Source: Balanoglossus misakiensis (Eukaryota > Animalia > Hemichordata). Taken from it: a stretch of 64,000 nt of DNA. Position 1 is the first letter of the stretch, and each line of letters starts with the position of its first letter. Below are positions 13,537 through 61,102 of this stretch, piece by piece. Under the pieces are notes generated by a model. That model searched no databases, had not been told where the DNA came from, and saw nothing but the letters and a program-made list of their open reading frames with translations. The stretch covers positions 11,214,454 to 11,278,453 of the forward strand of contig CM082596.2 in the NCBI GenBank assembly GCA_040954595.2. Reading direction: 5' to 3'. The translations under genes were made by a program, and so were the position numbers.

Positions 13537-13775
13537 TTAATGTATTTCCCCATGTTTTAGGTCTCCATTTTGATTCACAATTTCATGTCAACAAGTTCAC
13601 ATTCTACCACCACATCACATCTACACATCAACTATCACTGTGATAGAAGCTACCATTTTCAAGTTAAAGATATACAGTCACCGCAAATTTACATACACCC
13701 ATATATGGCTGAAATAGATTATTTGCGGGTTCTAAATAACATATGGCGGCGCTCTTTTTTTCGCATGTGCCACCC

Positions 13776-15090
13776 TACGGCGCGCCAAGTGTTTCAAAAT
13801 TATTTATCATTATTTTATAGAAAATTGATGTCTTTTAACAAAAAAATACGTACAAACAGAAAAAACTGATTGGTGGTTTAAAAAACAACGAGTGTAAAAA
13901 GTAATCCATCGTGGAGTAAAAAAAAAAACAACAACAACAACAAAAAACTAACACACACAGAAGAAAATCTCACCTGTTGTCAAAAAAAACCACCAAGCTT
14001 ACCAAAAAAACGTCCACAAGGCAGTTGCCAAAAAAAAAATAACTAATTTGTCACAAAAAAAACACGCGCACATTTTTCACGAAAAACGCACACTTCACCC
14101 CCACAAAAAATACACACAAAGTATTAAAAAGAACACTCTTTGAAAAAAAAGAGAGACTACAACTTTTAAAAATGCACACCCCCAGAACAAACAACACAGG
14201 CAAACATAGAAAAAACACGAACATGTTAGCCATAAAAAACGGAGATATTTGTCACCGAAAAAAAAAACCCGCACTCATGTCACCCCAAAACTAACGGGCC
14301 ACTTTAAAAAACGCAGATGCACTGAGGTTGCAAAAATAAGCACATTTTTAATCCCCCGAAAAAAAAAAAAAAAACAGGCAATTTGAAAAAAAAAACACAC
14401 AGCAATTTGCAAAAAAAAAAAAAAAAAAGGAACATTTGTCACCCCCCAAAAAACATGCAATTTGAAAAAAAAACGCAGAGCAATTTGCCAAAAAAAAAAT
14501 ATAGGAACATTTGTCACCCAAAAAAAAAACAAGCAATTTGAAAAAAAAAACGCAGAGCAATTTGCAAAAAAAAAAAAAATATAGGAACATTTGTCACCCA
14601 AAAAAAAAACAAGCAATTTGAAAAAAAAAACGCAGAGCAATTTGCAAAAAAAAAAATAATAGGAACATTTGTCACCCAAAAAACAGGCAATTTGAAAAAA
14701 AAAAACACGATATAAAATTTGAAAAAAAATATATAGGCACATTTGTCTCCCAAAATATTCAGGCAGATCCAAGTTGTAAAAAATGGTATATTTGTCATCC
14801 AAAAAATAAAACAAGCGTGTTTAAAAAAACGAGCATTCAGTTGTAAAAATAAATAATAGTCTTTAACAACTTGAAAAAAAAAACGGACGCATTTGAAAGA
14901 ATAGAAAAAAAAATGAGTGAGAAATCCTGGGGAATAAATGCGCATGCGCAAAAAAAAAAAAAGTGAACAATCCTGGCTGAAAAAAAAAAGTGAGAGATTT
15001 CGGTAGAGGAGTCTGGGTAATATTTGAAAAAAAAAACGGAGTCTGAAAAAAAGTTGAATTGAAGAAGAGAAAAGAAAGGGGAAACGCACA
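13776..15090 (+). repeat. Left TIR with internal ~70-bp A-tract tandem repeats
   Basis: Unit ATAGGAACATTTGTCACCCA(n)C..GCAATTTGA(n)CGCAGAGCAATTTGCA(n) repeated at ~14370-14760; mirror image of 30922-32394. Confidence 0.92.
14939..14950. promoter_or_regulatory. TGCGCATGCGCA palindrome (NRF1-type site) in the left TIR; counterparts at 31049-31060 and 31098-31108
   Basis: Exact match to the NRF1 consensus near the inner end of each TIR; on the right it lies ~150 bp upstream of the transposase ATG. Function is inferred. Confidence 0.5.
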
Positions 15091-15574
15091 AACAACTGCT
15101 AGGCGTCGAGATACGTGAGACTGAACTCCGAAGCATCTTTTGGGCATCATCGTTATCAATCGACATCCACAAAAGGTGTGTATCATCTGTATGTTATATT
15201 TAAGTTTATTTTAACCGTGGCTAGCTGCAGTGCATGACAAGTCGTTATTTTGCATGGATTGCATCATGTTTAAAAAATCATGTTATCGAGTGAACTTTCT
15301 TATTCTACTATTTCCGAAGTATAAAAGTTCAGTTGTGTCTTTTCGCATCGTTTCGCATATAGTTAGCTCTGCGTGACAGGGCTGTGTGACGAAGATCGAC
15401 GCACGTTTTGAGTTCGGAATTCGGCCGTTTTTGGTAAGGAAACCATACCGCAACAAATCCGTTGAGTTTCGCCAGGTTTGGCTATGTAGCTTAGCAGGGC
15501 TGTGATTGGAGGCGTAGCCGTTAACAACACACAGCCCTGGTAGCTAAATTCCCGCCGCTGGAGTGATGTAACAG

Positions 15575-15797
15575 CACAGGGGACTCTCCCTCCGCGATTT
15601 TGTTTGTTTGTTTGTTTGTTTGTTGTTGTTGTTGTTGTTGTTGATGATGATAATACCCTAACACTTACATGTCAACAAACCATATTTATTAATAAAGAAA
15701 TATGTATTTGTTTATTATGCCAAAAATCATCATCATCATCATCATCAACAACAACAACAAACAAACAGACAAAATTGCGGAGGGAGAGTCCCCTGTG
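15575..15797. mobile_element. Palindromic MITE with 7-bp TSD (P-element-like ends)
   Basis: CACAGGGGACTCTCCCTCCGC...GCGGAGGGAGAGTCCCCTGTG; TSD GTAACAG at 15568-15574 and 15798-15804; mirrored (GTT)n/(CAA)n inside. Confidence 0.85.
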
Positions 15798-16023
15798 GTA
15801 ACAGGGCAATGTGTTGCTTTGCGGCTTGCTGCCAACCGCCAGCGGTTGATGATAGTTTACCAAGACAATTAACTTACATTCTTGAATTGTATGTAGTATT
15901 TCACATAGAGATGCATGGCATATTTTCATGTGTTACATTTTAACATACAGTTATTCCTCATTATGGTCTTTGTGAAATAATGTTTCATATATTTTTCATA
16001 TCTTCTTTCCAAAAGTCATCAGA

Positions 16024-19000
16024 ATGGATAATACACAAAGGTCAGAAATACAAAGAACATTGGACTCAATGGACACACTTGAAGTAAGAACAGCCGTAAA
16101 CAATTTATTTAGGGGAAGAAGGCAGCCAGCTCAAGTACAACAATTACAGAACACACCACATAACACCAGCCGCGCACGAAATCCTAGGGACACATCAAGA
16201 AAAACTGCTGTATTTCCTCGATCCACAGCTGTATATTTACCCAAATCAAGAATGTACCATATGAAACTGTGTGTCCTAAAATATGATGAAGCAGTCATGA
16301 TGGACACAACAGGAACTGTACATAACTGTGATGGAGACTGGCTTTTCAAAGGTGACATTTGCTTAGAAAGTAAATGGAATGATATACAGGTGGAGCGAGA
16401 AATACAGAACATGATAAGCCTTGCATATCCAAACTATATGGGAAAATTCAAGTTTGTGGATGTTCCACGCAAGGGTTCAGTCCAGTTACGAATCGTTTCC
16501 CGCTCATTCAAATATACGGCAAAAGCAGTATGGGATACAAGGAGTTTGAATAAAACCATCTATGTCATGCTTGATTCAGAACATGACCACACCCAGGAAA
16601 CTGCCAGCATTCAGCATTATCAGAGGTGTTCAAATGTTGTAGATACATATAACAGTACAGTGACTGCAGACACGTCCCTCCAGTCCCCATCCATGGTACT
16701 TGATGAAGTCACCACTGAGATTGAAGGAAATACTACTACTTTGCAAAGCCATTATGATGAAAGATATGCATGCACTACCGTTGTCCAACCTCTTCAAACA
16801 GAAAATGATACAACTATACAGCCTTTAAGTTTCACATCTAATCGGGCCATTGAAGACACTGTGCCATCTCCAACAAGTGAATCAATAAGATTAACAAGTA
16901 CAATACATGATGATACAACAATGCAGCTAGTGCCTTTAAGTTTCCCAGACAGTGTATCCAATCAGGCGAGTGAAGACAGGCCATCTCCATCAAGTGAACC
17001 AATGGGATTAACAAGTACAACTCATGACACCCTATGCATTGGACCTCAATCAACCACTGGACAGAGTCCAATTGGTAGACAACACCACCAAATGGAAAGT
17101 ACTGCCAAGAGACATAAAGGAAATCCAAAGAATGTAAGTATCCTGCTCAATAAGTCTTCTCATGTTGTTTAGTTTCAATAAGAGAGCTGTGCTCAGGCTG
17201 ATGACGTGCTTGTGAGTGAGTGAGTGAGTATGTTTATGTTTGATCAACTGTACGCATCACAATTTTTTAATACAGATGCTTCAATTCAAAATTTATGAAA
17301 GATAAAAATGAAAATATGGAAACTATTTCTTTGAATATTGTCCTGCCCCCCCCCCCTGACAAATTCCTAGGGGGTGCTAACATGTCAACAGGTGAACCCC
17401 TTTGGTCGAATTGTGTTAACATACAAGTGACATTGACAAAAGTCACATAAAGACAATTAATGCCATGATTTTCTTATTTGTAGGAGTGCACACTGAGAGA
17501 CATGATTTGTACTGATGGTGCAGAGCAGCTTGTAGATTACGGTAATGTGAACCTAAGTACTTATTCAGCAAAGACACATTCATCCTTGTCAGAAAAAGTA
17601 AACATGCATGATCAAGGGAGATGTAGTCTGATGTAGATTGAGTCATGACTTTTGAATATAAAAAAAATGACGTTCTTGCCCTCAGTAAAATTTACTTGAA
17701 TTTGCAAGATAAGATCAGTTGGTGCACATGCATATATTGTTCAAATGTCCATTATGTACTAGAATCCAAATAGTAGTTTAGCTGTGCTGATCTTCAATAA
17801 AATAAAACCTAAGGTTTGATAGCACTCTGAGATCCCCTAATTTCTTATGTTCCAGCATAAATCAGTTGATCTCAGTGTGATCTAATCCTTAATACTTACC
17901 AGATTATGACCCCTCAACTTCTGACCTTTAACCATTCTGCCATTACATGTAATTTCAATCATGCACTCTTGGCTTGTTAGAAATGTCTGTGCCCTTCTTT
18001 CCAAGAAAACAAGAAACTTTAAAAGGATGGTGACAGGGATATTGCCTTGTTGATAATTGAAACAAATTACTAGCTTCCACTATATGTAGTGTGTTTCTCA
18101 CAACAGGTCTACCAAACCCTGGCAATTACTGTGCAGTCAATGCGGTGATACACCTTCTTGCATGCATAAAACCAATTATGGAATGTTTATCTGAGGTGGT
18201 TTCTGGTGGTCCATGTATTGAAGCTGTCATTGAGGTATGTCAAACTTTTCATTTCAAGTTATGCAAATTGTCTTTAGGTATTGCAGACTAAATGGGCATT
18301 ACGATGACCTACTGAGTCATATGATTTTATAATTGTTTTCGCAATTTTCATGATAATTCATTATTTGTTATTATTCTTGACGTTATGTTTCTGTCAGTAC
18401 ATGCAGTGAATTGGTTTGTATTCATTCAAGGTAATATGTCACCTTTGACAGGTATTTTGATGTATTATACTTTTTTTCATATAATTACCATTACAAAATT
18501 AACTTAACAAATACTCTCCATTACAAAAGATTAAAGCTTATGACTGTATTCTTTAAAAAATAGTTATTGTGTGCAGTCATAGCTTCTCACTTCTAATTTT
18601 ACTGAAGTGAGCAAAGTTGTCTCTCACAGCATATAACAATTTACCTTCTTCTATGCCATAGGATGGGTTATATACTTGATATCAGTATATGATAGTGTCA
18701 ACATTATTAAGCCAAAAATATAATATCAGGAATTTTCATAAAACACTTTTTCATCTATCATTCCCATTTAAATCTAGATGATATCTTTGATTGGTGAAGA
18801 GGATTGTTTGGCAGAATACGAAACAGCAGTAAGCCATTTCCTCAAAAGTATGCCACGGGATATGGCTGGCGGTGGGTATGACCCTGCAGAAGTGTTGGAC
18901 GAAACCTTGAAAGTGTTGTGTACAGAAAATGAGGTACAGTATTTTCAATCTTGTCTGTGTTAATTGATTTTAGGTCAGTCTTACATTTGTTCTGATAATG

Positions 19001-22000
19001 TAACTGTGTCAAGTTTGTCGGACATGAACCAGCAAAAATTTATTTAAAAAGTTTTTGGTGACCTTAGGTGACCTTGACCATCTTTCTGATATCTCATTAT
19101 CTGGCTCAGATACAGCTTTGGAATTCCGTGGGAACCACTTGGGCCCCACAAACCATGCCTGTAGATTTAGATTTTAGGTCCAATTTGATTTATATGTACA
19201 TATATACCATGGGACCTTATGGGATTGGTTGCGTCTGTATGTATGTATGTATGGATGAATGTATGTCTGTCCACATCAAAAACTTGAAAACCGCTGCGTG
19301 TATCACCTTGATATTTGGTGTGCAGATGCAGGCTGGGCTGAAATGGGAGTTTGTTCAAATGAAAAATTTGAATTTGGTCAAAACTCAGTGACTCAAGAAC
19401 TACTGGTCAGATTGCTTTGCAAAGTGTGTGTATTTACTTTATTGAGTTCTTTGTAATTAGGCAGGAACCCCCTCCTGATATTTATACACACAGCAAATTC
19501 CTGCATGATAACATAACTGGCTAAGTTTTAAAGAGGCCAGCTGTTCTATTTAGTGTATGTACAGTACATATGCCATTGGCAGCTTATGGGTCAGTCAGTG
19601 TTTGCTCTTTGATCTCTCTCTTTCTCTATGTGTGTGTGTGTCTGTCTGTCTGTCTGTATATGCCATGTACTCTGGTGTAGACATTTTCTGGTGTAATCCC
19701 TCAATGGGACCACCGTGTCCTTGACGCGATTTTTTTTCTTCCAATTGATAGATTTTTTCATTCGTTTCATGTTTTATAGCATTTAGCACAGGTAATCCAG
19801 ACAACTTTGGCAGGTACACGGAGACGGATCTGGATTTACGAGGATGAGGAATTTGAAGACGACAGTTATCGTCGTATCCTTTGTTTGACCCTGCTGTTAT
19901 AAGGGATTTAAGCTGTAACTGTTTGCTCTATTTTCAGTATTTTTGATCAGTGAATCAATTGCAGTTTTGTGGTCCTCTAACAACAGCATGCCATTTCTAG
20001 TACTGCACTAATAAACATAGGCTGTATGTGTGTAACGTAACATTGACCATTGTTATTGTTGACAAATATATTCTTGTCCAGACTTTAATTACATTTTTGA
20101 ATGTGGGGCATTTCTTCATACTATAAGGATTTGAACAAAAAACTGCAGGAGATAAACAAACCAAAATTACCTGTACTGAAAACATCGAAAAGTTACAGCT
20201 AATTTCCTGACTTAAGTATATATTTTTGTAACAAACTAGATTCTTCATGTTGACGAGACCAGTGTTCAAGTGCATATATATCCATAAATACTGTTGTACA
20301 CAAACTCAGAAACTATGAATGGTTGTATGGTGATTTTATCACGCATATATAAAGTAAAAAGGTTGCTGCCCTGTGGTAGTAACTAACAGATGGTGAGATA
20401 ATGTGTTTTCAAGAAGTAGGGGTGGGCATTAATTTGAAACTAAATTGGGCAGACCTTTTCAGGGTGTGATCATTTTATAGGGAAAAATATAACAAATGAT
20501 ACTGACATCATTGATTTTGCTGATGATTGTCAATTTAATATTCAGTTTTCCTATACATTACCTTGATACACCCCTGGTACGTTCTTCAACTAAACCCAGG
20601 ATCATCAATTGACAGTATGCTAAATCATTTTCTCACAGAGAGAATGATTTATTGTTGGCGAGACATTCCTTCTAATGTGAAAGTCCAAATCAAAGACAGC
20701 ATAGACGGAGCACCTGAACCTTCTGAACGTATGTTTTTTATTTATTTGATTATACATGTACACTTAGTTACTTTGCTATATGTTTCGCTGTTACAAATAT
20801 AGAACTGAAAATATAGTTAATTTTCATAATTTCTCTTTGAGGGGTCACTGTATAAATATTGACATTGTCACGGTATCAATTTACCCCCAGAGATACTACA
20901 GAAGTAGAAACCCTTAAATGAAAAAGTGATTGTCATTTACTCTACTTTAGGGAGAAGGGAGGAAAAGGAACATCATTTTGTTTGTTTTCTTCATTATAGA
21001 TGACAGCGTAAAGCATGTTGACTTCTGGGTAACAGAACCCAATTTAATATGTTTGGGGATTCACAGAAATGATGGTTATGGCAATAAGGTAGGTTTCATA
21101 CTTTCTGTAGACTGATCATAAAAATGTTAATTATCAAGAGAAAGTGAAGTATAATTCATTGCACCACAACATGTGACTTTTGCTGTAGTTGCTATAGGGC
21201 ATAAGCTCCAGGTCATGAATGATTTGACAACTGAGATGAGACACAAGGATGCTGATCAATGCACATACAGTAGCTGGGGCCAGTGCAGTATTGTCTTCTA
21301 CATTTTTCTAAATACAGTCAACCAAAAGAATAAGTAGCTTCTTTTATCCTAGGTAGAGCAAATGATTTAGGATAAATTTAAATTGTATACTATTAGTCTT
21401 TGAAAAGTTTGATGCTTTTGTGATATTACAGGACAATAGGAGTATAAAAATTCCGAGGTCGATGACTGCTGAAGCACTGTTGTCTCCACAAGATTTCCCT
21501 GCATTCTGGTCACCCCCTGATATGGAAGTCACTGCCATAGTTGTGCATTCTGAAATAAGGGGCCATATAATGTTGTTAGTAAAGAAGGAGGCAGATACAT
21601 GGTAAATATAGTCTGTTTGCTATGTTCTTCTTTGTCATCATTTCGTGTGTAAAGCTGTTAAATACTGAAAAGAATGAATAATCAATAACAGATCAGTTTT
21701 AGTGAAATTTAGTCTGTAAAGCCTCTTAATTGATGGTGCTCATGAGAACATGTATGTAATTGACTGCAGAAAAGTGATAATTGATATAATTTTACAATTT
21801 CTTTCTTTGACAAATTACAATTAAAGATAAAGTTTGAGTCTCTATGCATGTTATATTAATGTGTTAAAACTTATCAAATTCCCTGCTATTGTTAACACAT
21901 CTCATTTGTTTTTGTCTGTTCAGGGTCATGTATGATGATGACCATGTAACTGAATTTATCATGACTTCTGCCATTCTGAAGTATCTACAAGGAGGCAATC

Positions 22001-22071
22001 AACAAGACAGTGTCAATATCCTTTTTCTCTTGAAACCAGAACAGACGCACGTTTCTTGTTACTTCATGTAA
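16024..22071 (+). CDS. Multi-exon cargo gene, part 1: N-terminal domain, Ser/Thr-rich linker and divergent USP (peptidase C19) deubiquitinase
   Basis: Phase-consistent exons 16024-17133, 17484-17541, 18107-18234, 18778-18933, 19780-~19873, 20546-20728, 21000-21088, 21432-21601 and 21924-(22071). Cys box GLPNPGNYCAVNAVIHLL; YDPAEVL; PNLICLGIHR; His box AIVVHSEIRGHIMLLV...W|VMYDD. Confidence 0.82.
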
Positions 22072-22381
22072 CATGTTACAAAAACTGTTGATTTTATAGT
22101 GGATAAAGTGATCAGTACACAATAATTTTTTGATGTATTTCACAAGTGTCTCAGTGCAGTCCATTTTAGAAATTGATACAAGCTCTGCAGTTAATGTCTG
22201 TTTGTAGGTGATCACTATTACACAGTCCTTGTGTAAACATTAAACTACCGTACACTTTGAAAATAAATAGAATATCAGTACTTTCAAAGAAAACTTTAAA
22301 GGCTGTAAAAGTGATGAACATGTAGTCATTCTAAAATGGAAAATAGAGTTTTGTTTGTCTTCCTTAATTACTCACTAATAG

Positions 22382-25300
22382 CTGTGTACTCAAAGGCCGA
22401 AATGTTCAGTCCTTACCCTTCAAAGCTGAGTGATGCTGTGAGGATATCTGCTAAAGAAAGGTATTTTCCTGGTGACAAAACATCCAAACAAAAGTTTTAG
22501 TTGTATGCAAAAGGACAGAACATAACATCTTTCATTTTTTTGCACATTCCATGTAATCAGGCAATATGTGTTTACTGTATCAAATATTCTCATTCGACAT
22601 TGTCTAGCATTCTAATATGTTACCACAGATCTGTATGTGTGAAGACTTTTCATGATATGTCCAATGTTTTTCTTCATTCTGGCAAGAGGTAAAGGTTATT
22701 GTCGTAATCAAAGCCTCATAATGTCACTGAGTGTGTACATGTACTATTGTACCACTTTTTTCTTTTATTTTCCCTGCAGACTTCAGGATTCTGTTGACTT
22801 GAGACAAATAAGTTGTGGATTAGGTAAATATTTATCATATGATAACAAACCATTTTTGTCCTTGCTGTTGAAAATGGAGGGATAAATGGCTTGTTTCTCA
22901 TGGAAAAATGATAATATGTGACTTCTATATTTGTTAATTTAGAAGATTTCCCTTCTGTACTGCTTAGGGACAGAGTTGATATGACAGGACGTGTTTTTTT
23001 TCCTTTTAAAAGAGTTGAATAGAGAATTGGTCAGAAGACGAGTTGGGAGAAGACTAAAATCTGTTGTTGGGATGGAGGATATTAAGAAGAAAGTAGAAAA
23101 GCTAGCCATCCGCGCAATAAACAACAAAGCCCGGAGTACAATTAAGAAACAAGAAGAGGAGCCCCTAAATTTATTATTTTATGGGCCACCAGGCACAGGC
23201 AAAACTATGTTTGCTAGGTTGCTGGCAGGTATGTTTCTTTTTGTGTCCATTCAATCTGTTACAATGTATAGAACTCATTAAACTTTAAAGCTGTAAATTT
23301 GTTTTCAATATTAAAGCTTCAGTATTTCTCGTTTTCGCATAAATTTTGTTTGAAACGGCATCTTCAATTTCTAAAAGTACATGATAATTGATTCTGAATC
23401 TAACAGTTATCATGCCCAGCTCTGTTCATAAACACATACAATTTACAATATAACGAGTGAAGAATGACTTTCTGTCCGGACAGAAAGTCAGGCTCTGTTG
23501 ACACACGTGACTACTGCGCATGCGCACTCAAATGTGAATCTATGCGGAAGAGGTTTGGTCGCCCCAAATCTAGCGCCTCAGCGAAGAAATGCGCACTAAT
23601 TCGGCGAAATTCTGGGAAGATAACTATATGGGAGAAATCAGTCGATGGAACCAGATCAAATCTGAAAATGGTCTGACATCAAATATCAAAGTGGCACGTT
23701 TGCTGATCGAGATGTACAACATTTCCGTTGTAAACAAACCCGCGCATCATTTCAAGTGTTACGGGCAATATTTACAGCTTGCATATAGCTACAGTTGCCC
23801 AAACCTTTCTTATATCTTCATTATGTAGTATTCCATGATGAATGTACAGGAAAAACGGGCATTTTTCGATGATGAAAAATGGATACACACGAGAAATACT
23901 GGGGCTTTAACCTATAATTCGCAAATGTTTCAAAAAACACAATGCAAAAGTCAACACCCTTCGTAATTTAATGGTACAGTTTTCATTTCACAGAGTACCA
24001 CTTTCACAGAACTGTGAGAAAATTAGTTTTACCTTCATTTTTATTACTTAATATTTTGTTCCAGGTGCAATATAAAGGATGATACCATAATAGGAAATCA
24101 AGTTTTATTCAATGTATAAATAGAGAGTTTAGGGAGTATTCCTAGTTTCTTTCCACTTTGCATAGGCTGTACATGGTTATCTTATACCATAGGATTGTGT
24201 GTAAAAATGCAAGAAACCACCGATAAAATATTGTCATTTTCTTGAAATTGTCAGAAATAATTCAGAATGAGAATCAAAATCAATATCTGCAAAAATAAAA
24301 TTTATGTCAGACCAGCTTGAGTCTTGGAGTCAGCTCATCTAAAAACTCCTACCATGAAGATCTAAAGTGGGGAGAAGGGATGACTCAGCAATTTCCTTTT
24401 TTGGGGGGGTCATAAAATTGTCGCTAAAATTACCATTGCTTCTCCAATAATTTCCATGTTTGTCTTTGAATCCACACGCACAATTGTCATATAACTAGAT
24501 GAAATGTACACAGTGGTGAGGGGGGGGGGGGGTATTTCCATATCATGTAAGTCAAAACCTAGTCTGGTAATTTCTATATTCTAGATACAGCAATCGGTGC
24601 AGTAAATTCAAAAGCATTTTTAGCCATGGTTCTACTTTGTGCTTTGCTATTTCAGGATGCTTATATGATGTTGGTATATTAAAGGAAGAGAAAGTTGTTG
24701 AAGTACAGAGAGATAATGTTGTTGCTCAGTATCTGGGAGAATCAGAGAAGAAAATGAAGAAAAAGATCGAAGAGGCAGCTGGTGGATTGCTGTTTATTGA
24801 TGAGGCATACTCACTATATAAAGGCAAATCTACGAAGGACTTTGGAGTTGACATAATAAACACCCTTATGCACTATCTCACTGGTGACTGTATGAGAGAT
24901 ACCCCAGTATTTGTTCTTGCAGGATATAAGATGGAAATGGAGAAGTTGCTGTCAGCTAATGAGGGTCTCTTAAGAAGGTTCAGGGAACCATGGATCTTCC
25001 AGCCATACACATCTGAAGATCTGAAACAAATAGTGTGCAACAAGTTGCTAATGCAGGGGTTCCAGTTTGAAAGTGGTACTGATGGTGAGATCCTGGCCCT
25101 GATAGAGGCTGTACCGCCTGGATTGCGTGTGAAGTTAAATGCAGGACTTTGTGGTCGCATTATCGACTACATGAAGGATAGCATCGATGATCGGGTTTGT
25201 AATCCATCCAACACGACAGAACTGTTACTTGTAAAGCTAGAAGACATACACAGTGTCAAAGAACAGCTGAGTGGGCAGTGGGTTGATGATCCCAAAACAC

Positions 25301-25518
25301 ACACAACCATTGGGATACAGACTGATCATGTGGAACTGACAGATAGTACTACAGAGATGATATCTATGAAATGCGTGAATGTCAATACACAGACAACTGG
25401 CCATGTGGAAACTGCACATACACATGCACAGACTGTGATGTTGGGTTCTCTGAACAAAGAGACGCAGACTGACCGACTGGCGAAACTGATGATCAAGGGA
25501 CACAGACATATCATGTAA
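22382..25518 (+). CDS. Multi-exon cargo gene, part 2: CbbX/CfxQ/SpoVK-family AAA+ ATPase with TQT-rich tail
   Basis: Phase-consistent exons 22382-22460, 22629-22688, 22780-22823, 23013-23228 and 24656-25518. Motifs: VVGMEDIK, Walker A GPPGTGKT, VAQYLGES, Walker B LLFIDEAYSL, DFG, LAGY, NEGLLRRF. Confidence 0.9.
23315..23906. mobile_element. Kolobok-type MITE in the AAA gene intron
   Basis: TTAA at 23311-23314 and 23907-23910; TIR AGCTTCAGTATTTCTCG / CGAGAAATACTGGGGCT. Confidence 0.82.
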
Positions 25519-25594
25519 AACTGAGGTCAACAATGGGACAGAGACTAGTTTGACTTTCTATTATGTATCACCAGACAGGTACAATTATCAAGAG

Positions 25595-26465
25595 CAATCT
25601 GAATAAAATTAGATGTAGTGTTGGGCGCCATATTTACTTTTGCTGATTCTTGGCTGTTCTGTTAAAAAGAGACGCCCACACTACATCTAAACCTATGCCA
25701 TAGAAGATCTCAATCAGAGCGGTAGTCTCGGTTACCCAGACGCCTTTGCTCTTCCGATGCTCTCCAGAAAAGGGTCTGGGGAAATACTATTGAAAGCTTT
25801 GTAAAACAAAATGGCCGATGTCAGGATTTTGATCATCGCCTGATTGGCTGAGCTGTCAGTATGACCTTGGTCACTGATTCTCGACAATGTGTGATTATTT
25901 GTCATATCTTCATATCAAGAGACCGGTACTTGTTGGTTGATGCGAAAGGCAAAAGGCGTCCTCTGTTAGCATTGTTGGAGAAATTATACGAAATATCTTT
26001 AGTAGACGATTGTCGAAACTATTGCAGTGACCTGGGTCATACTGACAGCTCAGCCAATCAGGCGATGATCAAAATCCTGACATCGGCCATTTTGTTTTAC
26101 AAAGCTTTCAATAGTATTTCCCCAGACACTTTTCTGGAGAGCATCGGAAGAGCAAAGGCGTCTGGGTAACCGAGACTATCAGAGCGGTTGTTTAGAAAAC
26201 TGGAGGTGTGGAAAAACAAACAAACTTGAACAATAGAAGTTAGTTTCCAGCGCGTGGCCAGTTCCGAAGCGTTAGGAAAGCCGCTCTGTGATTGGTCGAA
26301 TGGATCCATTTGCCAAAACTAGATGTTCTATGGCATAGGTTCAGAATGATGTAGTGTGGCACGTACACCAAGAACAGCCACGGCAGAGAACAGAACAGCC
26401 AAGTCAAAGACAGAGAACAGAACAGCCAAAGACAATGCCAAACTTATCTGATTTTAACCAGATTG
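25595..26465. mobile_element. Older MITE with CAATCTG...CAGATTG ends and ~9-bp TSD (AcademH-like)
   Basis: Flanks TATCAAGAG / CATCAAGAG (8/9 match); imperfect TIRs. Confidence 0.7.
25723..26178. mobile_element. Young palindromic MITE with 9-bp TSD (AcademH-like), nested in the previous element
   Basis: TAGTCTCGGTTACCCAGAC...GTCTGGGTAACCGAGACTA; ~150-bp near-perfect TIRs; TSD TCAGAGCGG on both sides. Confidence 0.9.
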
Positions 26466-26496
26466 CATCAAGAGCAGAGAGGTGGTGAACAATTAT

Positions 26497-26579
26497 CCCT
26501 TTCACCTCTCTGGTGCCGTCCAAATCCATTGTTCTCTATGGTAAGGTTGGACCTCTAGAGGGAACTGGGGGTGAAAGGG
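26497..26579. mobile_element. Tiny piggyBac-like MITE
   Basis: CCCTTTCACC...GGTGAAAGGG flanked by TTAT/TTAA. Confidence 0.55.
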
Positions 26580-27583
26580 TTAAGGTCATATTGTAATTCA
26601 CTTACAAGCATTTAAATATTCTTATATGAAAATGAGTATTATTCTTATATGCAAAAATAGCTCTATACTATTATAGCTCCTATCACAGCCGTTTTAGTGA
26701 TCTTTTTCACTCGTTTTTTGTTTCAAAGCTGTTTTATTATTCCTTAAATCATGCTAGAAATAGGTGATCATTTTAATGTGGATGTAATTTTGTTGATTAA
26801 AGCACCACATGGTTCTGACTCAGAAAAAGGTTTTTCTTTGGTTACTTGAATAGCTGTAACTTTTGACGTTTTTTTTTTAAATTATTTAGCTTACCAATGC
26901 AACATTGACGTGTATACAGAAGCATTATTATTATAAATTGCATTCAACTTGGGACACAAAAGCATTTATCGAAAAATAACATCGGTCATTACACATGCAC
27001 TGGCTATGTTGACAACCAGAACACGGCCATATGTAGTAGAACAAGAATCTGTTAATACACAGAAGCAGAATACGGATAAAACAGTAAAATGTTACTACTA
27101 ATGTTGCTTTAAAATGGCATAAAGTACTGACCTGTGGTAGGGGAAAAAATTGGCATTTTCTGAAACCTTGGTGTAAATGGATTGATAAAGGCACTACTTG
27201 TACACACCAGTGGACTTTAGTATTTCCATTTATTGACAAAAATCTTCAAAGCAGGTCAAAATGTAGGTGTCAATCTAAACACTGTCCCTGTTATTTTTTT
27301 ATGTACAAGAAAACAAAGTAACTGCTACCTATATGATTTTGTGGAATACCAAGTCTGACATCAATAAATGTTTACAAGTTTTTTTCTATGGTGTATTGAG
27401 CCATTAATAAAGTGTGTTTTTTTTTTGCAATGATGTCTTGTTGCTGTAATCAGAGCACATTCTTCAGTTCAGCATTGCCAGTTAAAAAGATACATTAAAA
27501 TGTCAATGAATAATAACAATGTCGCAAACATTTTCATTTCTTCTTATCTCTTTGATAAATGGCCAAAGTACATTACATGTTAA

Positions 27584-27923
27584 AGCCTCTGGAGCTGCCA
27601 CTTTTTGCATTATTTTCATGAATTAATTTAAATTGGTCCATCAAAATAAGCTTGCTGTTAGGTATAAACAAACATCTTATCCATGCCTGATCATGGCTGT
27701 ATATAGCGATCTGAAAACGCCATGTATGAAAACGGTGCCGCACCGATTTAATCAGCTTCCATACAAACAGTACGAGGCTATATTTGTATATGTCGCCAAG
27801 AGATGACAAACTGATGCAAATGCAAGTAATATGGCTTAATGGTGAGGATTTTAGAGGATAGGGAATATATTTGAAGTATTTTACTGTGGAAAAAATATGC
27901 AAAATTTGGCAGCTATAGGGGCT
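27584..27923. mobile_element. Kolobok-type MITE, inverted relative to 13232-13536
   Basis: TTAA at 27580-27583 and 27924-27927; same TIR and internal sequence. Confidence 0.85.
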
Positions 27924-28138
27924 TTAAAGGTATACAGTCTCCGATGCAAATTAAGCCACAGTTACCAGCATGGAAAGTGGAAATTTAGCCACTAATATCT
28001 CTTGTTTTCAGTAGGTAGCCATGTGAAAAGAAGTGTGCCACTTCATCATGGTTATCAAAAGATTTATACACACCCTTGTAACCATACATGGGTAACCGGT
28101 ATGTGTAAATTGGAGGTGATTGTATTTCTTTATGGATA

Positions 28139-30895
28139 TTACAATGACATTTGTCTGATTAAGGAACATGCTCTAGTGTAAATATCAATACCCTTTTCAT
28201 CACTTGCTGCTAATGGATCTATCCTTTCCTGTAGAGTCTGAAAACATTGCTCATAATTTGACAATTCAAATGTTGGTGATAGCATTTCATTATTTGATTC
28301 TTCATCACTGTTGACAGTGATGTATTCTTCATCACTGTTGACAGTGATGTCAGTTTCCACTCCATAAGTGGCATAATCTATGTTCTCTGGATCTAACAGT
28401 TCTCTGATAGCAGTTTTATCAGAATTTTTGAATGCAGTAACACTTTGCAGCCACAGCTGATTCGGACTCAAATTGTGTTCTGTTTGCAATCTATGTTCAT
28501 TCCAGCCTTTCCTAAAAACTGTCAGTGAATAATTTATACGAGGAAGAAAAACAAAATGAAGACACAGTATCTCTATAGGATTATCAGGATTTAAAAGACC
28601 CTGGCATTCCATCTGTAGAAAAACATCACGATAGTATTCCAAACAACATTTAAATGTATCTTGATGTAATCGTTCAATTCTTTGATTATAAATTGATGAT
28701 CCAACAATGTGTGAACCTCTGTTGTCTCCACGGTGTGCCAGCATGAAAGCTGCAACCGTTGTATTTTCCATCCCATAATCAGATCTGACACGGGACGGAA
28801 TGCCATATTCTTGCACTGCACCAAGGAAACCATCTAAAACAGTTGATGCCATCTTGTTGTTGGCAGCAATGAGGTAGACAACTACTCTAGAATACCCATC
28901 TATTCCACCATGAACATATAGTCCCCATCTTTGTAATTTTTCCAGGCCATCTGCAAAAAATGAAATATGTATTAAGCCTTATGAAACTCTTGATAAATGT
29001 ACACGTAGATCAATTCTATTGGCAAGGAGGACTATATATCACACACTTATTAATTAAGTTCAATATTCAGAAAAGCAGCAATCCACATACATAATTATGG
29101 TAAATGTTTCACTAAGAAATAAAATCAACATGGAAAAACAGCATCATGGCAATGATGCTTAAGCTAGCTTCAGATTTAGTTTGGCATTCAGTTTTGGTTT
29201 CGTGGGATGCAGGCCCACTTCATAAAACTGCATTTCCAGCTTCCTCACCCAAATTAGTCTTAAGTATAAAAAGAATATGCTGAAAGACGAGTACACATGA
29301 TCAATTGCTCAATGTATGACATGTACAACATTTTAGCACTTTAAAGTTATATTTAGATGTGGAAAATTATTTTTTTTATCACATCAAATATGTACCTCAG
29401 AAATGCATAATTGATTGGAATGTAAATTAAATATGAACACGGCCAAATGTGATCAAAATATTTTTCATTCTAAATAGGGTTTCCTAAACTACAACTATAC
29501 AAATCAGCTCTTGATGCACAATTACTCTCCGTTACTCGAAACCGAAGATGTATCTGTATCAGACTGAGTCTAACTTAAGCATCTTTATGACAACTGTTCA
29601 ATATTGAGTATTATATTATACCAGTATATTGATGGTGTAAATCACGCTATTTGATTGGTCGAGACACGACACGTGACCATGGTATATTAGCCATATACCA
29701 CAGTCATATATCATAGTCAAAGAAAATGCCTTTTTAAAATGTTTTATGCAAAGTTTCAATATACTGGCATAATATAATAGCAATAAAACACCCCCAGCCA
29801 TGGTATACCACGAGATTTTGACCAGTTCGTGCGTATATGTCGTGAACTGGTCAAAATCTCGTGGTATACCATGGCTGGGGTGTTTTATTGCTTAAATACA
29901 ATAGTTCCATTTGAAAACATGCAGTGGTTTTAAGATTTCACTGACACGCATACACCTACATAGATAGATAAATACATAAATAGATACATGATACATACAT
30001 ATTTACATGTATGCATGCATACATACATACATACATACATACATACATACATACATACATTACATGCATGTACGTACATACTATCTATCATAATAACTTT
30101 GTGTAATGTAAACTCTTACCAATATGCCATAAACTTTGTGCTGCCGCCACATTGTACACACCATGCCTTTTACTTTTCATTCTCAAGAGTGGCCAACGCA
30201 GGGCTCGTTCAAAAGGTTCAATCCTCTGGAGACTTTCTCTTATTTGCTGTCTTTGAACGGAAACTCATAGATCTCAGAATACCTTCCACGATTCTTTCTC
30301 CGCAATGCTTAAAAGTCGATTCCTTGATTCTGCGTATGTGCATGTCAAGATCTGCATCACTAATGGGATTGTACTTATCTGTGAAATCATACCCTAATGA
30401 TTTCAATCTTCTCCATAATGTTTGACGAGATATTTGGAGCATTTCTGAGATATCTTTCATTTTGAACCCGTATTCGATAAATAATTGTACCTTGTCATCA
30501 ATATCATATGGTGGACGTCCAGGTTCACCAGTTCGAATAGTTTCAGTCTCAGATAGTCCACAGTTCACATCACGAGACGTATTAACATTCCCAATCGTAA
30601 CACAAGAGCGAGGACTGTTTCCAGAGTTAGAGCTCCATATTTCCAAAACAGATTGCAATGCAATATGTACAGAGTTCAAGCAATCCAGTAACAAATGAAT
30701 GTCCTGCACAGAAACGGCCATTACATGGTGCTGCACCGCTTCTCTTATGTTCAGTGTGTAACGTATCATAGAGACAGTTCTCTCGACCATGTTACACACC
30801 ACTCGCCGGTCATTTAGACCAGACGGTAACCTGTTTCTGTGGTCTCGAACAAGTATCTTCACTTCCTTCACGAAGGAATCCCATAACGGCGCCAT
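28139..30895 (-). pseudogene. IS3EU-type DDE transposase/integrase; two exons, one frameshift
   Basis: Exon 1 (30895-30120): MAPLW..., GRPPY, HTH-like ISEMLQISRQTLWRRL, ISDADLD, CGERIVEGILRS, frameshift ~30265, QIRESLQRIEP...SLWHI. Exon 2 (28950-28139): DGLEKLQRWGLYVHGGIDGYSR, PSRVRSDYGMEN, NQRIERL, WNEHRL..SPNQLW. The GT-AG intron splits the first catalytic Asp codon. Confidence 0.9.
29610..29895 (+). mobile_element. Hairpin-ended MITE family A (Crypton-like), in the transposase intron
   Basis: TATTATACCAG start, GATTGG box and long terminal hairpin AGCAATAAAACACCCC...GGGGTGTTTTATTGCT; no TSD. Near-identical copies at 58916-59232 (-) and 61103-61418 (+). Confidence 0.75.
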
Positions 30896-30921
30896 GTTTG
30901 CTTCTCTTCGACCCTTATCGG

Positions 30922-32394
30922 TGTGTGTGTTTCCCCTTTCTTTTCTCAACTTATTTTCAGACTCCGTTTTTTTTTCAAATATTACCCAGACTCCTCTACC
31001 GAAATCTCTCACTTTTTTTTTTCAGCCAGGATTGTTCACTTTTTTTTTTGCGCATGCGCATTTATTCCCCAGGATTTCTCACTCAATTTTTTTTTCGGCG
31101 CATGCGCATACGCTATTCTTTCAAATGCGTCCGGGTTTTTTTCAAGTTGTTAAAGACTATTATTTATTTTTACAACTGAATGTTCGTTTTTTTAAACACG
31201 CTTGTTTTATTTTTTGGATGACAAATATACCATTTTTTACAACTTGGATCTGATGGAATATTTTGGGTGACAAATGTGCCTATATAATTTTTTTTTTCAA
31301 ATTTTATATCGTTTTTTTTTTCAAATTGCCCGTTTTTTGGGGGTGACAAGTGTTCCTATGTTTTTTTTTTTTTCAAATTGCCTGTTTTTTTTGGGGTGAC
31401 AAATGTTCCTATATTTTTTTTTTGCAAATTGCTCTGCGTTTTTTTTTTAATTGCCTGGTTCTATTTTTTTTTTTTTGCAAATTGCTCTGCGTTTTTTTTT
31501 TAAATTGCCTGTTTTTTTGGGTGACAAATGTTCCTATTATTTTTTTTTTTGCAAATTGCTCTGCGTTTTTTTTTTAAATTGCCTGTTTTTTTGGGTGACA
31601 AATGTTCCTATTATTTTTTTTTTGCAAATTGCTCTGCGTTTTTTTTTTAAATTGCCTGGTTCAATTTTTTTTTTTTTTGCAAATTGCTCTGCGTTTTTTT
31701 TTAATTGCCTGTTATTTTGGGTGACAAATGTTCCTATTATTTTTTTTTGCAAATGCTGTGCGTTTTTTTTTTCAAATTGCCTGTGTTTTTTTTTCGGTGG
31801 ATTAAAATGTGATTATTTTTGCAACCTCAGTGCATCTGCGTTTTTTTTAAGTGGCCCGTTAGTTTTGGGGTGACATGAGTGCGGGTTTTTTCGGTGACAA
31901 ATATCTCCGTTTTTTTATGGCTAACATGTTCGTGTTTTTTCTATGTTTGCCTGTGTTGTTTGTTCTGGGGGTGTGCATTTATTTCAAGTTGTAGTCTCTC
32001 TCTCTCTCTTTTTTTTTACAAAGAGTGTTCTTTTTAATACTTTGTGTGTATTTTTTGTGGGGGTGAAGTGTGCGTTTTTCGTGAAAAATGTGCGCGTGTT
32101 TTTTTTGTGACAAATAAGTGATTTTTTTTTGCAACTGCCTTGTGGACGTTTTTTTTTTGGTAAGCTTGGTGGGTTTTTTTTTTGACAACAGGTGAGATTT
32201 TCTTCTGTGTGTGTTATTTTTTTTTTTTTTTTGTTTTTTTGTTTTTTTTACTCCACGATGGATTACTTTTTACCCTCGTTATTTTTTAAACCACCAATCA
32301 GTTTTTTGTATTTTTTTACGTATTTTTTTTGTTAAAAGACATCAATTTTCTATAAAATAATGATAAATAATTTTGAAACACTTGGCGCGCCGTA
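30922..32394 (-). repeat. Right TIR with internal A/T-tract tandem repeats
   Basis: Reverse complement of the left TIR, with a different number of repeat units and an extra GCGCATGCGCA block. Confidence 0.92.
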
Positions 32395-33571
32395 GCGACC
32401 CACTGAAAATCCGTGATTGGCTAGATCTCAAGTTAACGTGGTAACTGTAGCTAAATTTCCATAGGTGACCGTATACCTTCTCTACACGTACTGTTGACTG
32501 ACACACACAATCCCCTAACTCTCAACACATACATACAAAGACCCAACCCACTCCACGTGTAGTCTCCATGGCCATGCCACCTGGCCTGCAGGCTACCACA
32601 TCCAAAAGCATACACACACACAATACATGTCAATTTTACATGAGGAGCGGCTCATGTACTTTATTCTAAACTTGAATGATATATAAACTGAAAATTTACC
32701 CCGCACCAAAACCCAGAGATAAAACCCTTTTTTCAGGATAAGGGGAAAAAACTCTGGGAAAGCGTAGGTAATTCACCAACTTTACAAAAAATTCTATTTC
32801 TAAATTCATGCCTCTTTCTGCCTCACAGAAAGAAAATGTTGGAAGTTTTACAATACCAAGCAAAATTTGGTATTGTAGGTCTAAACTAAAACTGACAAAA
32901 ATTAATATTTCATCTCTGAATGAATAAAGTGTTCTCAATAAATCATAATAGGTTTGGTGTTACACTGTTCTAAATGTAGCATTTACAATTAAAGGGCAAC
33001 TACCTGTAATTTTTGGTACAGAATTGTTAATATTGACAAATGCATTCAATTGACTTGAATACAATTGTTAACAATAACAATGCTGATTATGCATACCAGA
33101 AATCGTGGTGCATACATAGACCAAAATTACGTACTGAAAAATTTGTCAAATGTAACACATAGTGGACCTTAATGTCTATAAGAATGAATCTCAAACAATG
33201 TCACGTGAACGTAAAATATTAAATTTCATATTAAAATACAAAAAGAATAAAGTCATACTATTGAACACTGCACACAGCAGTTGAGTCTAAAGTGACTAAT
33301 GTACTGGGGGCGATCCCAAACAGAAACGGGTCATATAGTCATAAATATCCCCCACCCTTATAAAGACCCCTTTCTCCTTGGGATGGCTCCTGTGATAAAA
33401 TGAAACTGTGCTAGACTTGAAGAGATATACGCAGGAAACCTCATCAGTTACAGCCACTGCGAAGACTTCATTGATGATCCCCCCAAATTGGGGGGGGGGG
33501 GGGGGGGGGGGAAATGTAGATGAATGTTGAAATCTTCAAAAGCAAATTGAAAGTATTTTACTGTCAAAAAA

Positions 33572-34930
33572 GTGTAAATAATGTGTTGCCTGTAAGCCAT
33601 GATGCATGATCTCCATGCCATTCAATTTATGAGCGAATTTACTGATTTACTACCCTCCCCCCGAAATACAAACAAAATAAAACAATTATGAATATATGGC
33701 TTCTGCAAACACATTATTTAGCAAATTAAAATCTTATCTGATAAAGTCACTTGAAAAGTTGAAAGACCCTCTTAAATTGAGGAAAAAGAGGAATGTTAAA
33801 ATGTAAAATAACTGAAAACTGAATGTGTATAAAACTTCTTAAAAAGAAGTATATCATTGTAAATAATGTGTTGCCTGTAAGCCATGATGCATGATCTCCA
33901 TGCCATTCAATTTATGAGCAAATTTACTGATTTACTACCCTCCCCCCGAAATACAAACAAAATGGCTTCTGCAAACACATTATTTAGCAAATTAAAATCT
34001 TATCTGATAAAGTCACTTGAAAATGTGAAAGACCCTCTTAAATTAAAGGGAAAAAAAAGAATTTTCAAATGTAAAATAACTGAAAACTAAATGTGTATAA
34101 AATAGAGAAAACTTCTTGAAAAGAAGTATATCATTGTAAATAATGTGTTGCCTGTAAGCCATGATGCATGATCTCCATGCCATTCAATTTATGAGCAAAT
34201 TTACTGATTTACTACCCTCCCCCCGAAATACAAACAAAATGGCTTCTGCAAACACATTATTCAGCAAATTAAAATCTTATCTGATAAAGTCACTTGAAAA
34301 TGTGAAAGACCCTCTCAAATTGAGGAAAAAGAGGAATGTTAAAATGTAAAATAACTGAAAACTGAATGTGTATAAAACTTCTTAAACAGAAGTATATCAT
34401 TGTAAATAATGTGTTGCCTGTAAGCCACGATGCATGATCTCCATGCCATTCAATTTTTTAGCGAATTTACTGCCCCCCCCCCAAAAAAAATACAATCAAA
34501 ACAAAACAATTATGAATACATGGCTTCTGCAAACACATTATTTATGTTCTTATAAAGGAAATTTTCATCAATAAAATCAAAGGACTGCAAACACTCAGAC
34601 GATGCATAAATACTTGGCAATGTCAAGCCAAAGCAAATTACCTCGTCTGATACAGCCTTTGGAAAAAAGTTCATTAAAGACCCTCGAACATTGAGGAAAA
34701 AGGCTAAAGACGTGCGTTTAAATAACTCAAAACTGTGTATAAAATAAAGAAAACTCCACAATGTGAAGTTTTTTTATTGTCCACAAAGTTTAAATAATGT
34801 GTTGCCTGTAAGCCATGTTGCATAGGCTCAATGCTATTCAACTTAAGAGCAAATTCACCAATATATTCCCCCCCCCCTGCCAAAAAAAACAAACAATTAT
34901 GCCTATATGGCTACTGCAAACACATTATTT
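33572..34930. repeat. Tandem array, ~270-285-bp unit, 4-5 copies
   Basis: TAAATAATGTGTTGCCTGTAAGCCA recurs at ~33575, 33860, 34137, 34403 and 34791. Confidence 0.9.
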
Positions 34931-39540: not shown

Positions 39541-39574
39541 AATGTACTTCAATGGCTGGTTACTCAAATTTAAT

Positions 39575-61092: not shown

Positions 61093-61102
61093 CATTATTG
61101 AG

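What the first reader, a model, noticed from the sequence alone, without database searches (positions are those of the whole stretch)
13776..32394. 18.6-kb IS3EU-type transposon carrying a spliced deubiquitinase + CbbX-type AAA+ ATPase cargo
Seen: long TIRs with TACGG/CCGTA ends enclose two convergent intron-containing units, a DDE transposase (-) and a ~9.5 kb cargo (+) with USP Cys/His/Asp boxes and a CbbX/SpoVK-like ATPase. Established: TAYGG ends and this integrase core mark IS3EU elements; CbbX/SpoVK AAA+ proteins are remodelling ATPases best known from bacteria and plastids. Inference: this is a cargo-carrying transposon family with its own ubiquitin-editing and protein-remodelling module. 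It might disassemble or stabilise the transpososome (as ClpX does for MuA) or counter host ubiquitin-based defence. I know of no described element with this combination, but I could not search.
Basis: partly seen in the sequence, partly recalled or inferred. Interest (0 to 1): 0.92.

Follow-up and report, generated by a model that had tools for sequence, protein, structure and literature searches.

The report
Transposon with a deubiquitinase-ATPase helper gene
This 18.6-kb cut-and-paste transposon, likely from an acorn worm, carries beside its transposase a second gene predicted to splice into one protein joining a ubiquitin-removing protease to a bacterial-type protein-remodelling ATPase; related transposons elsewhere carry the same gene pair, so it is likely a long-kept helper that would reshape and protect the transposase.

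Summary
An 18.6-kb IS3EU-type element has ~1.3-kb inverted repeats ending TACGG..CCGTA, a DD34E transposase and a convergent gene. That gene can be spliced (12 exons, all GT-AG) into one 1,080-aa protein: a predicted ubiquitin-like domain, a divergent USP with Cys/His/Asp, and a SpoVK/CbbX-clade AAA+ ATPase. This copy's transposase is frameshifted; a contig from another run keeps the frame open.

The cargo recurs. The fused protein is annotated in Saccoglossus and Ptychodera (lineages split over 370 My). In P. flava, cargo and transposase accessions are two apart on one contig, and cargo copies lie on five contigs. One metagenome contig carries a diverged USP-like + AAA cargo facing a transposase of the same clade (98/88). 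HECT-motif elements fall outside that clade.

Function is untested. Best guess (0.45): a dedicated remodeller and deubiquitinase for the element's own transposase. Against: an imperfect 7-bp TSD, sensor-2 Arg lost here, catalytic His lost in the metagenome copy, no RNA or empty-site evidence.

The scan noted IS3EU with HECT or kinase partners before, not this one. My searches found no paper on it; Repbase could not be read.

The parts
13769..13775 (+). Left copy of a candidate 7-bp target site duplication
   Evidence: 6 of 7 bases equal to 32395-32401; about 1% by chance
13776..15093 (+). Left terminal inverted repeat, ~1.3 kb, begins TACGG, with internal ~75-80-bp tandem units
14939..14950 (.). 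GCGCATGCGC palindrome at the inner end of the left TIR (NRF1-type promoter motif; name recalled). Candidate cargo promoter
   Evidence: 7 strand matches at 4 sites in the window, 0 in 100 shuffles; 3 of the 4 sites lie in the TIRs
16024..25518 (+). Cargo gene, predicted exons 16024-17133, 17484-17541, 18107-18234, 18778-18933, 19792-19873, 20546-20728, 21000-21088, 21432-21601, 21924-22067, 22780-22823, 23013-23228, 24656-25518; 1,080 aa. An optional in-frame 60-nt exon 22629-22688 is possible
   Evidence: colinear with Saccoglossus XP_002741888 and P. flava XP_070562339; no RNA evidence
16234..16590 (+). N-terminal domain, predicted beta-grasp (ubiquitin-like) fold
   Evidence: AlphaFold model pLDDT 74; VIA-align top rows mostly ubiquitin-like/PB1/RA domains, best Z 5.5, rmsd 3.5, 82 aligned; 64%, 54% and 31% identical to homologues
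18107..22067 (+). Divergent USP (peptidase C19) domain; Cys codon at 18130, His at 21564, Asp at 21934
23013..25290 (+). SpoVK/CbbX/EccA-clade AAA+ ATPase; Walker A Lys codon at 23201, Walker B Glu at 24802; sensor-2 Arg replaced by Gly
23311..23910 (.). Nested high-copy small element with short inverted ends, in the last cargo intron
   Evidence: I16; contig depth spike
25686..26345 (.). Nested MITE-like inserts between the two genes (palindromic core 25723-26178)
28139..28950 (-). Transposase exon 2: second Asp and Glu of the DDE core, and C-terminal region
   Evidence: Pfam rva_4 E 2.3e-66; 88% identical to P. flava XP_070533302
29599..29898 (.). Nested repeat in the transposase intron, also at 58914-59231 and 61093-61418
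30120..30895 (-). Transposase exon 1: helical N-terminus, HTH, start of the core; frameshift near 30264 in this copy
   Evidence: one X1 contig spans it with two more bases at 30264
30921..32394 (-). Right terminal inverted repeat, ends CCGTA; inner end 26 nt upstream of the transposase ATG, with two GCGCATGCGC sites
32395..32401 (+). Right copy of the candidate 7-bp target site duplication

Best explanation
This is an IS3EU-type cut-and-paste transposon whose second gene, predicted to encode one ubiquitin-like + USP + AAA+ protein, recurs beside transposases of one clade and likely works as the element's own remodelling and deubiquitinating helper for its transposase. Shown: TIRs, DD34E transposase, open spliceable cargo ORF, fused homologues in two hemichordate families, and linkage to transposases of one clade (about 0.9 that the cargo is a heritable part of the family). 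Inferred: both genes are transcribed inward from TIR promoters; the ATPase forms a ring like CbbX; the N-terminal beta-grasp domain recruits one dedicated client; the ATPase pulls on that client (most likely the transposase, to activate it or to take apart the post-integration complex), while the tethered USP strips ubiquitin so that the client is recycled instead of degraded.
For: Fusion conserved: Saccoglossus XP_002741888 (39% over 960 columns) and P. flava XP_070562339 (29% over 901) align in the order N-domain, USP, AAA; the lineages split over 370 My ago (PMC4729200, passages). Folded domains are conserved, the linker hardly (N 64/54/31%, AAA 81/72/48%, linker one weak hit in 4 comparisons). 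Linkage: P. flava XP_070533300 (cargo N-half) and XP_070533302 (transposase) lie on a contig of the same length, accessions two apart. Dispersal: P. flava cargo proteins come from five contigs of different length, one 90% cluster from three of them. Locus L083 has an intact transposase and a convergent USP-like + AAA gene; a profile from the three hemichordate USPs finds it at E 7.6e-7 among 13,287 ORFs, next unrelated hit 0.19. Window, P0147 and L083 transposases fall in one 19-member clade (98/88; 0.97 among 207 rows) that holds 0 of the 31 loci with HECT motifs. SpoVK/CbbX/EccA-clade ATPases are described as chaperones with dedicated clients recruited by variable N-terminal domains (PMC11513918, passages). 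Walker A/B, sensor-1 GY, the Asn and arginine finger, and a pore-loop Tyr are present.
Against: No test of binding, expression or activity. The USP is divergent: the window's own Cys-box exon scores below the Pfam cut-off, and in L083 the catalytic His aligns to Arg, so catalysis may be dispensable or my alignment off. Sensor-2 Arg is Gly in the window and P0121. L083's AAA does not join the hemichordate AAAs in the best trees (one origin not rejected, p-AU 0.41). Only 1 of 97 transposase loci showed the cargo; the other four loci of the clade end 0.8-1.3 kb after the transposase stop and show none. The P. flava linkage rests on accession order and contig length, not on DNA that I read. The TSD is imperfect and 7 bp, not 6. 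Most IS3EU relatives carry the opposite activity (a HECT ligase), which fits a host target as well as the transposase.
Confidence: 0.45

Rival explanations
1. The cargo is an element-borne counter-defence enzyme that acts on host proteins (ubiquitinated chromatin, silencing or DNA-repair factors), and helps the element spread without touching the transposase.
For: Fungal IS3EU carry TET/JBP and alpha-kinase genes, read as escape from silencing (PMC12730594, passages). OTU and Ulp1 domains of Ginger1 were proposed to act on repair pathways (PMC2836005, passages). The partner gene varies across IS3EU (HECT motifs at 31 of 97 loci). A ubiquitin-like domain ahead of a USP recalls proteasome-docking USP14/Ubp6 (recalled).
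Against: The AAA clade is described as client-specific chaperones for activation or assembly. The pair has stayed with one transposase clade rather than spreading among superfamilies as TET/JBP did, as far as sampled.
Confidence: 0.3
2. The ATPase works like MuB, TnsC or IstB: it binds and bends target DNA and licenses integration.
For: Bacterial transposons use dedicated AAA+ partners (PMC11208146, passages); the transposase core weakly matches IS481 transposases.
Against: IstB is a DnaC/I paralogue, whereas this domain matches EccA, SpoVK and CbbX (E 1e-25 to 1e-45) far better than IstB_IS21 (E 0.014-0.09), and keeps a protein-threading pore-loop Tyr.
Confidence: 0.1
3. The cargo is a captured host gene or a neutral passenger (Pack-TE style) with no role in transposition.
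For: GingerRoot elements carry acquired gene fragments (PMC6839031, passages). The gene has many introns and nested repeats.
Against: No parental animal gene was found: nearest non-element AAA relatives are bacterial, algal or viral at about 30-46%, and the N-domain hits only 3 of 1.84 billion representatives, all hemichordate. Open frames and catalytic residues are kept across over 370 My.
Confidence: 0.1
4. Two unrelated insertions or an assembly artefact put a host USP-AAA gene between two TIRs.
For: TSD imperfect; empty site not seen.
Against: TIR pair about 95% identical outside gaps; contigs of other runs cover cargo and transposase at about 99.6% with similar depth; same gene pair in P. 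flava and L083.
Confidence: 0.03

Closest known systems
IS3EU/GingerRoot superfamily (Repbase; PMC10045372, PMC6839031)
   Same: TA..TA ends (TAYGG..CCRTA), integrase-like DDE core matching the IS3EU rows of the paper's alignment motif for motif, TIRs, size under 30 kb
   Different: ~1.3-kb TIRs against 100-150 bp in GingerRoot; 7-bp imperfect TSD; none of the 14 IS3EU rows seen in supplement part 12 has this clade's ERLH-x-DT motif (read by eye); USP-AAA partner not mentioned in the passages read
Fungal IS3EU with TET/JBP and alpha-kinase genes (PMC12730594)
   Same: An IS3EU with a separate enzyme gene opposite in orientation to the transposase; same terminal motif
   Different: Animal host; partner is a deubiquitinase-ATPase fusion
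Ginger1 (OTU, Ulp1), Mutator (Ulp1), Helitron (OTU), and a Trichomonas transposase_11-peptidase C19 fusion (PMC2836005)
   Same: Transposons that encode ubiquitin or SUMO proteases; one precedent for a C19/USP domain
   Different: In Ginger1 and the Trichomonas protein the protease is fused to the transposase; here it is a separate gene fused to an AAA+ ATPase
SpoVK/CbbX/EccA clade of classical AAA+ chaperones (PMC11513918; PDB 3SYK, 3ZUH, 9LUR)
   Same: Best structure and family matches; GY sensor-1, conserved Asn, arginine finger, pore-loop Tyr
   Different: Below every equivalog cut-off; sensor-2 Arg lost here; fused to a peptidase, which that paper found no evidence for in this clade; sits in an animal transposon
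IS21 IstB, Mu MuB, Tn7 TnsC (PMC11208146); ClpX acting on MuA and p97/Cdc48 with its deubiquitinases (recalled)
   Same: An AAA+ ATPase serving a DDE transposase; an ATPase coupled to ubiquitin removal
   Different: IstB/MuB/TnsC act on target DNA and belong elsewhere in the AAA+ family; ClpX and p97 are host-encoded; no role is shown here

Membership tests
IS3EU/GingerRoot | TA..TA termini (TAYGG..CCRTA) | tested here: met
   TACGG..CCGTA; definition
IS3EU/GingerRoot | Terminal inverted repeats | tested here: met
IS3EU/GingerRoot | Integrase-like DDE core of the IS3EU type | tested here: met
   Pfam rva_4 E 2.3e-66; DD34E; same motifs as the IS3EU rows in the supplement (by eye; those rows were not put in a tree)
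IS3EU/GingerRoot | TSD usually 6 bp (6-8 accepted for GingerRoot) | tested here: inconclusive
   6 of 7 at 7 bp, 3 of 6 at 6 bp; empty site not seen
IS3EU/GingerRoot | Dispersed copies with different flanks | tested here: inconclusive
   Relatives on five P. flava contigs; flanks of other copies not read; no genome held
USP / peptidase C19 | Cys box with upstream Asn, His box, Asp after a Trp | tested here: met
   N393/C398, H647, D663 in the window; kept in P0142 and P0145; His aligns to Arg in L083
USP / peptidase C19 | Pfam UCH above the gathering score | tested here: inconclusive
   Met by homologues P0141, P0144, P0145, P0146 (35-52 bits against 23.9); not by P0142 (16.5) or single window exons (14.6); the spliced window protein was not scanned
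USP / peptidase C19 | Cleaves ubiquitin conjugates | not testable with these tools
   needs an enzyme assay
SpoVK/CbbX/EccA AAA+ clade | Walker A and B; sensor-1 GY signature | tested here: met
   GPPGTGKT, FIDEAY, AGY; features from PMC11513918
SpoVK/CbbX/EccA AAA+ clade | [quoted passage not shown] | tested here: met
   N895 and R901 align with CbbX and SpoVK homologues
SpoVK/CbbX/EccA AAA+ clade | Second arginine finger (sensor-2) | tested here: not met
   Gly in the window and P0121; Arg in L083 and the bacterial rows; P0142 and P0145 end before it
CbbX, SpoVK or EccA proper (equivalogs) | NCBIfam curated cut-off | tested here: not met
   90-153 bits against cut-offs of 423-467
IstB/MuB/TnsC transposition ATPases | DnaC/I-related AAA+ fold of IstB | tested here: not met
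   IstB_IS21 E 0.014-0.09 only; MuB and TnsC profiles did not appear in these scans
Ubiquitin-like (beta-grasp) domain | Beta-grasp topology | tested here: inconclusive
   Model from 7 sequences, pLDDT 74; best Z 5.5, no Foldseek hit at E<=0.001, but nearly all top rows are beta-grasp domains

The most novel reading that the evidence does not exclude
An ancient IS3EU lineage encodes its own 'segregase': a bacterial- or giant-virus-type CbbX-clade ATPase ring with a built-in deubiquitinase and a ubiquitin-like adaptor that activates or dismantles the element's transpososome. It would be a eukaryotic cut-and-paste transposon carrying the job that phage Mu borrows from ClpX, and a peptidase-fused member of an AAA+ clade reported to lack such fusions.
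Probability: 0.35. Interest if true: 0.9.

Novelty: new variant of a known kind. Interest (0 to 1): 0.72.

Why it matters
How eukaryotic transpososomes are activated and taken apart after integration, and why so many transposons carry ubiquitin-system enzymes, are open questions; the link has been proposed since at least 2010 (PMC2836005). Here is a compact two-gene system in which a deubiquitinase and a remodelling ATPase travel with one transposase clade, so deleting or mutating the helper tests the idea directly. It also puts a SpoVK/CbbX-clade ATPase into animal genomes by way of a transposon, fused to a peptidase, against the published statement that this clade shows no such association (PMC11513918).

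Tried and rejected
Own genome: none held, so copy number, other flanks and the empty site stay open; the junction could not be examined in sequencing runs either. Contig depths are only a hint of several near-identical copies: element contigs 311-330 in X1, against 18-51 for five joints and one contig from other loci, but three other joints at 478-632; the tool states that depth is no copy number. No RNA holder was listed: no evidence either way on expression or splicing.

First gene model with a frameshift in the T-run near 22993: rejected. An acceptor at 23012 puts the run in the intron, gives an open frame, and fits the length variation there in both runs.

Single-sequence fold of P0145: pLDDT 32, not used. 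ESM Atlas: weak unnamed hits for the N-domain, no usable feature hit for USP+AAA. Homology between the N-domain and the ubiquitin-like segment of HECT cargoes: not supported (hhalign probability 1.1, matched or beaten by 2 of 40 shuffles). PDB sequence search for the USP part: 0 hits. Donor of the AAA: unresolved; bacterial, algal and giant-virus rows are about equally distant; no USP found in the 80 viral AAA loci. No close AAA relative in metagenome contigs; no IS3EU core in viral contigs. The 'longer' AAA search listed 120 of 360 hits and none aligned to the USP region; lengths 344-501 aa were not searched. The review 10.1266/ggs.18-00024 is not held and Repbase could not be read.
Full report
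1. Observation. The element runs from TACGG at 13776 to CCGTA at 32394. Its inverted repeats are about 1.3 kb on the left and 1.5 kb on the right, with 1,216 matches and 66 mismatches outside gap columns. The flanks share 6 of 7 bases, which random pairs reach about 1% of the time; at 6 bp only 3 match. IS3EU are defined by TA..TA ends and usually 6-bp TSDs (PMC10045372, passages); TAYGG..CCRTA is given for fungal IS3EU (PMC12730594, passages); 6-8 bp was accepted for GingerRoot (PMC6839031, passages).

2. Transposase. Two exons on the minus strand (30895-30120, 28950-28139) give about 528 aa with an HTH region and a DD34E core (Pfam rva_4 E 2.3e-66). The core shows the same motifs as the 14 IS3EU rows in the supplement of PMC10045372 (part 12 of 18 read; compared by eye). 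This copy has a frameshift near 30264. One contig of run X1 spans the exon with two more bases there, which keeps the frame open; X2's contig ends at that place with the same extra letters. X1 and X2 are one sample. So either this copy is defective or the assembly has an error, and an intact version exists.

3. Cargo. Twelve exons from 16024 to 25518, all with GT-AG introns, give one 1,080-aa frame; an extra 60-nt in-frame exon is possible. No RNA run was listed, so splicing is predicted. Contigs of X1 and X2 cover the gene at about 99.6% identity, and a length change in the T-run at 22993 falls in an intron of this model. Three domains: (a) residues ~70-190, modelled at pLDDT 74 from 7 sequences, match beta-grasp domains weakly but consistently (best Z 5.5); (b) a divergent USP with N393/C398, H647 and D663, whose homologues pass the Pfam UCH cut-off in 4 of 6 proteins that contain part of the domain (P0141, P0144, P0145, P0146; not P0142 or the truncated P0143); (c) an AAA+ domain whose best family and structure matches are EccA, SpoVK and CbbX, below each equivalog cut-off, with Walker A/B, sensor-1 GY, the Asn and arginine finger, but Gly in place of the sensor-2 Arg. 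A GCGCATGCGC palindrome (NRF1-type, name recalled) lies at the inner end of both TIRs, which suggests inward transcription of both genes; this is inferred.

4. The cargo belongs to the family. The AAA's closest hit is a Ptychodera flava protein at 80%, and the N-domain hits 3 of 1.84 billion representatives, from P. flava and Saccoglossus kowalevskii. The host is therefore likely an acorn worm (inference). Saccoglossus XP_002741888 and P. flava XP_070562339 carry N-domain, USP and AAA in one chain; the two lineages split over 370 My ago (PMC4729200, passages), though horizontal transfer of the element is not excluded. P. flava cargo proteins come from five contigs of different length, all 40-48 Mb. 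XP_070533300 (cargo N-half) and XP_070533302 (transposase, 88% in the core) share a contig length and are two accessions apart; this is indirect evidence of adjacency. Of 97 loci fetched with the transposase profile (80 metagenome, 17 genome), 1 (L083) has a convergent USP-like + AAA gene; a hemichordate-only USP profile finds it at E 7.6e-7 among 13,287 ORFs. 31 of the 97 have HECT-type motifs by regular expression; Pfam confirmed HECT in 4 of 20 ORFs tested. In transposase trees the window, P0147 and L083 lie in one 19-member clade (0.97 among 207 rows; 98/88 among 62 rows holding 25 of the 31 HECT-motif loci), with none of the HECT-motif loci inside. The set was chosen by similarity to the window's transposase, and the cargo status of 16 of the 19 members is unknown.

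5. Against. L083's His box has Arg at the catalytic position. Its AAA does not group with the hemichordate AAAs in the best trees, although one origin is not rejected (p-AU 0.41). The four other loci of the clade are short and show no cargo. The empty site and other flanks were not seen. The donor of the AAA is unresolved: bacterial, algal and giant-virus relatives are about 30-46% identical.

6. How it likely works. Characterised members of the SpoVK/CbbX/EccA clade are chaperones with narrow clients recruited through variable N-terminal domains, and no peptidase fusion was found in the clade (PMC11513918, passages). Here the N-terminal part is a ubiquitin-like domain plus a USP, kept beside one transposase clade. 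The simplest dedicated client is the transposase: the ring would activate it or take apart the post-integration complex, and the USP would remove ubiquitin so that it is recycled (0.45). A host target such as chromatin, silencing or repair factors is the main rival (0.30). A DNA-targeting role like IstB, MuB or TnsC (PMC11208146, passages) is less likely given the clade (0.10), as is a passenger (0.10). ClpX acting on MuA, p97 with its deubiquitinases, and USP14/Ubp6 are recalled analogies. None of these steps was tested.

7. What is known. IS3EU with extra enzyme genes are in print for fungi (TET/JBP, alpha-kinase). Ubiquitin and SUMO proteases are known in Ginger1, Mutator and Helitron, and a peptidase C19 is fused to a transposase in Trichomonas (PMC2836005, passages). 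Searches for IS3EU (62 papers, 30 listed), IS3EU + HECT (0), GingerRoot/IS3EU + ubiquitin (3), transposon + CbbX/SpoVK (15, 14 listed), transposon + deubiquitinase/USP (37, 20 listed), AAA+ + transpososome (33, 15 listed) and hemichordate terms showed no description of this combination in the listings; most of those papers were seen as listings only. PMC11175523 was read in passages and gave nothing used. Repbase and the 2020 review could not be read, and the supplements of the other papers were not opened; any of them might name this protein. The scan's earlier notes report IS3EU with HECT, RING or kinase partners and gave me the GingerRoot paper and the idea of partner-transposase binding; none held USP or CbbX with IS3EU.

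8. Verdict. A real, probably recently mobile IS3EU element of a distinct sublineage with an undescribed deubiquitinase-ATPase partner gene. New variant of a known kind; interest 0.72; 0.9 if the helper proves to remodel the transpososome.

Noticed in passing
L083 2662-4475 (-): Second USP-like + CbbX-type cargo, without introns in the part seen, with a frameshift near 3730, His box altered, and an AAA closer to CbbX consensus than the hemichordate ones; its host is not identified
   Followed up: partly
P0149 (P. flava XP_070582194): A sister transposase (60% in the core) that may belong to the second P. flava cargo family (P0141, P0143-P0146); linkage not checked
   Followed up: no
window 30838-30891: Contigs of about 4-5 times the element's depth share about 54 nt at the transposase start and then diverge: a more abundant relative or non-autonomous family
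   Followed up: no
L096, L122, L129, L131, L145, L150, L161: Convergent ORFs with a shared ubiquitin-like-looking motif upstream of HECT-type cargo; no significant link to this element's N-domain
   Followed up: partly
L107 13775-14680 (-): Weak Ulp1 (Peptidase_C48, E 0.0013) ORF facing an IS3EU transposase
   Followed up: no
window 1003-4168: LINE reverse-transcriptase fragment (RVT_1 E 7e-18) interrupted by an element with ~650-bp, 99% complementary arms (1699-2342 / 2888-3530)
   Followed up: no
window 15575-15797: Small inverted-repeat insert with microsatellite arms between the left TIR and the cargo ATG
   Followed up: no
window 33543-46216: Several tandem arrays with units of about 91, 229 and 277 bp
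   Followed up: no
window 54208-54507 and 60506-60805: Direct repeat pair, 96% alike, 6.3 kb apart; possibly the LTRs of a retrotransposon
   Followed up: no
L161-L177: Animal-type IS3EU loci inside assemblies filed as bacterial or archaeal MAGs, that is, probable host contamination
   Followed up: no
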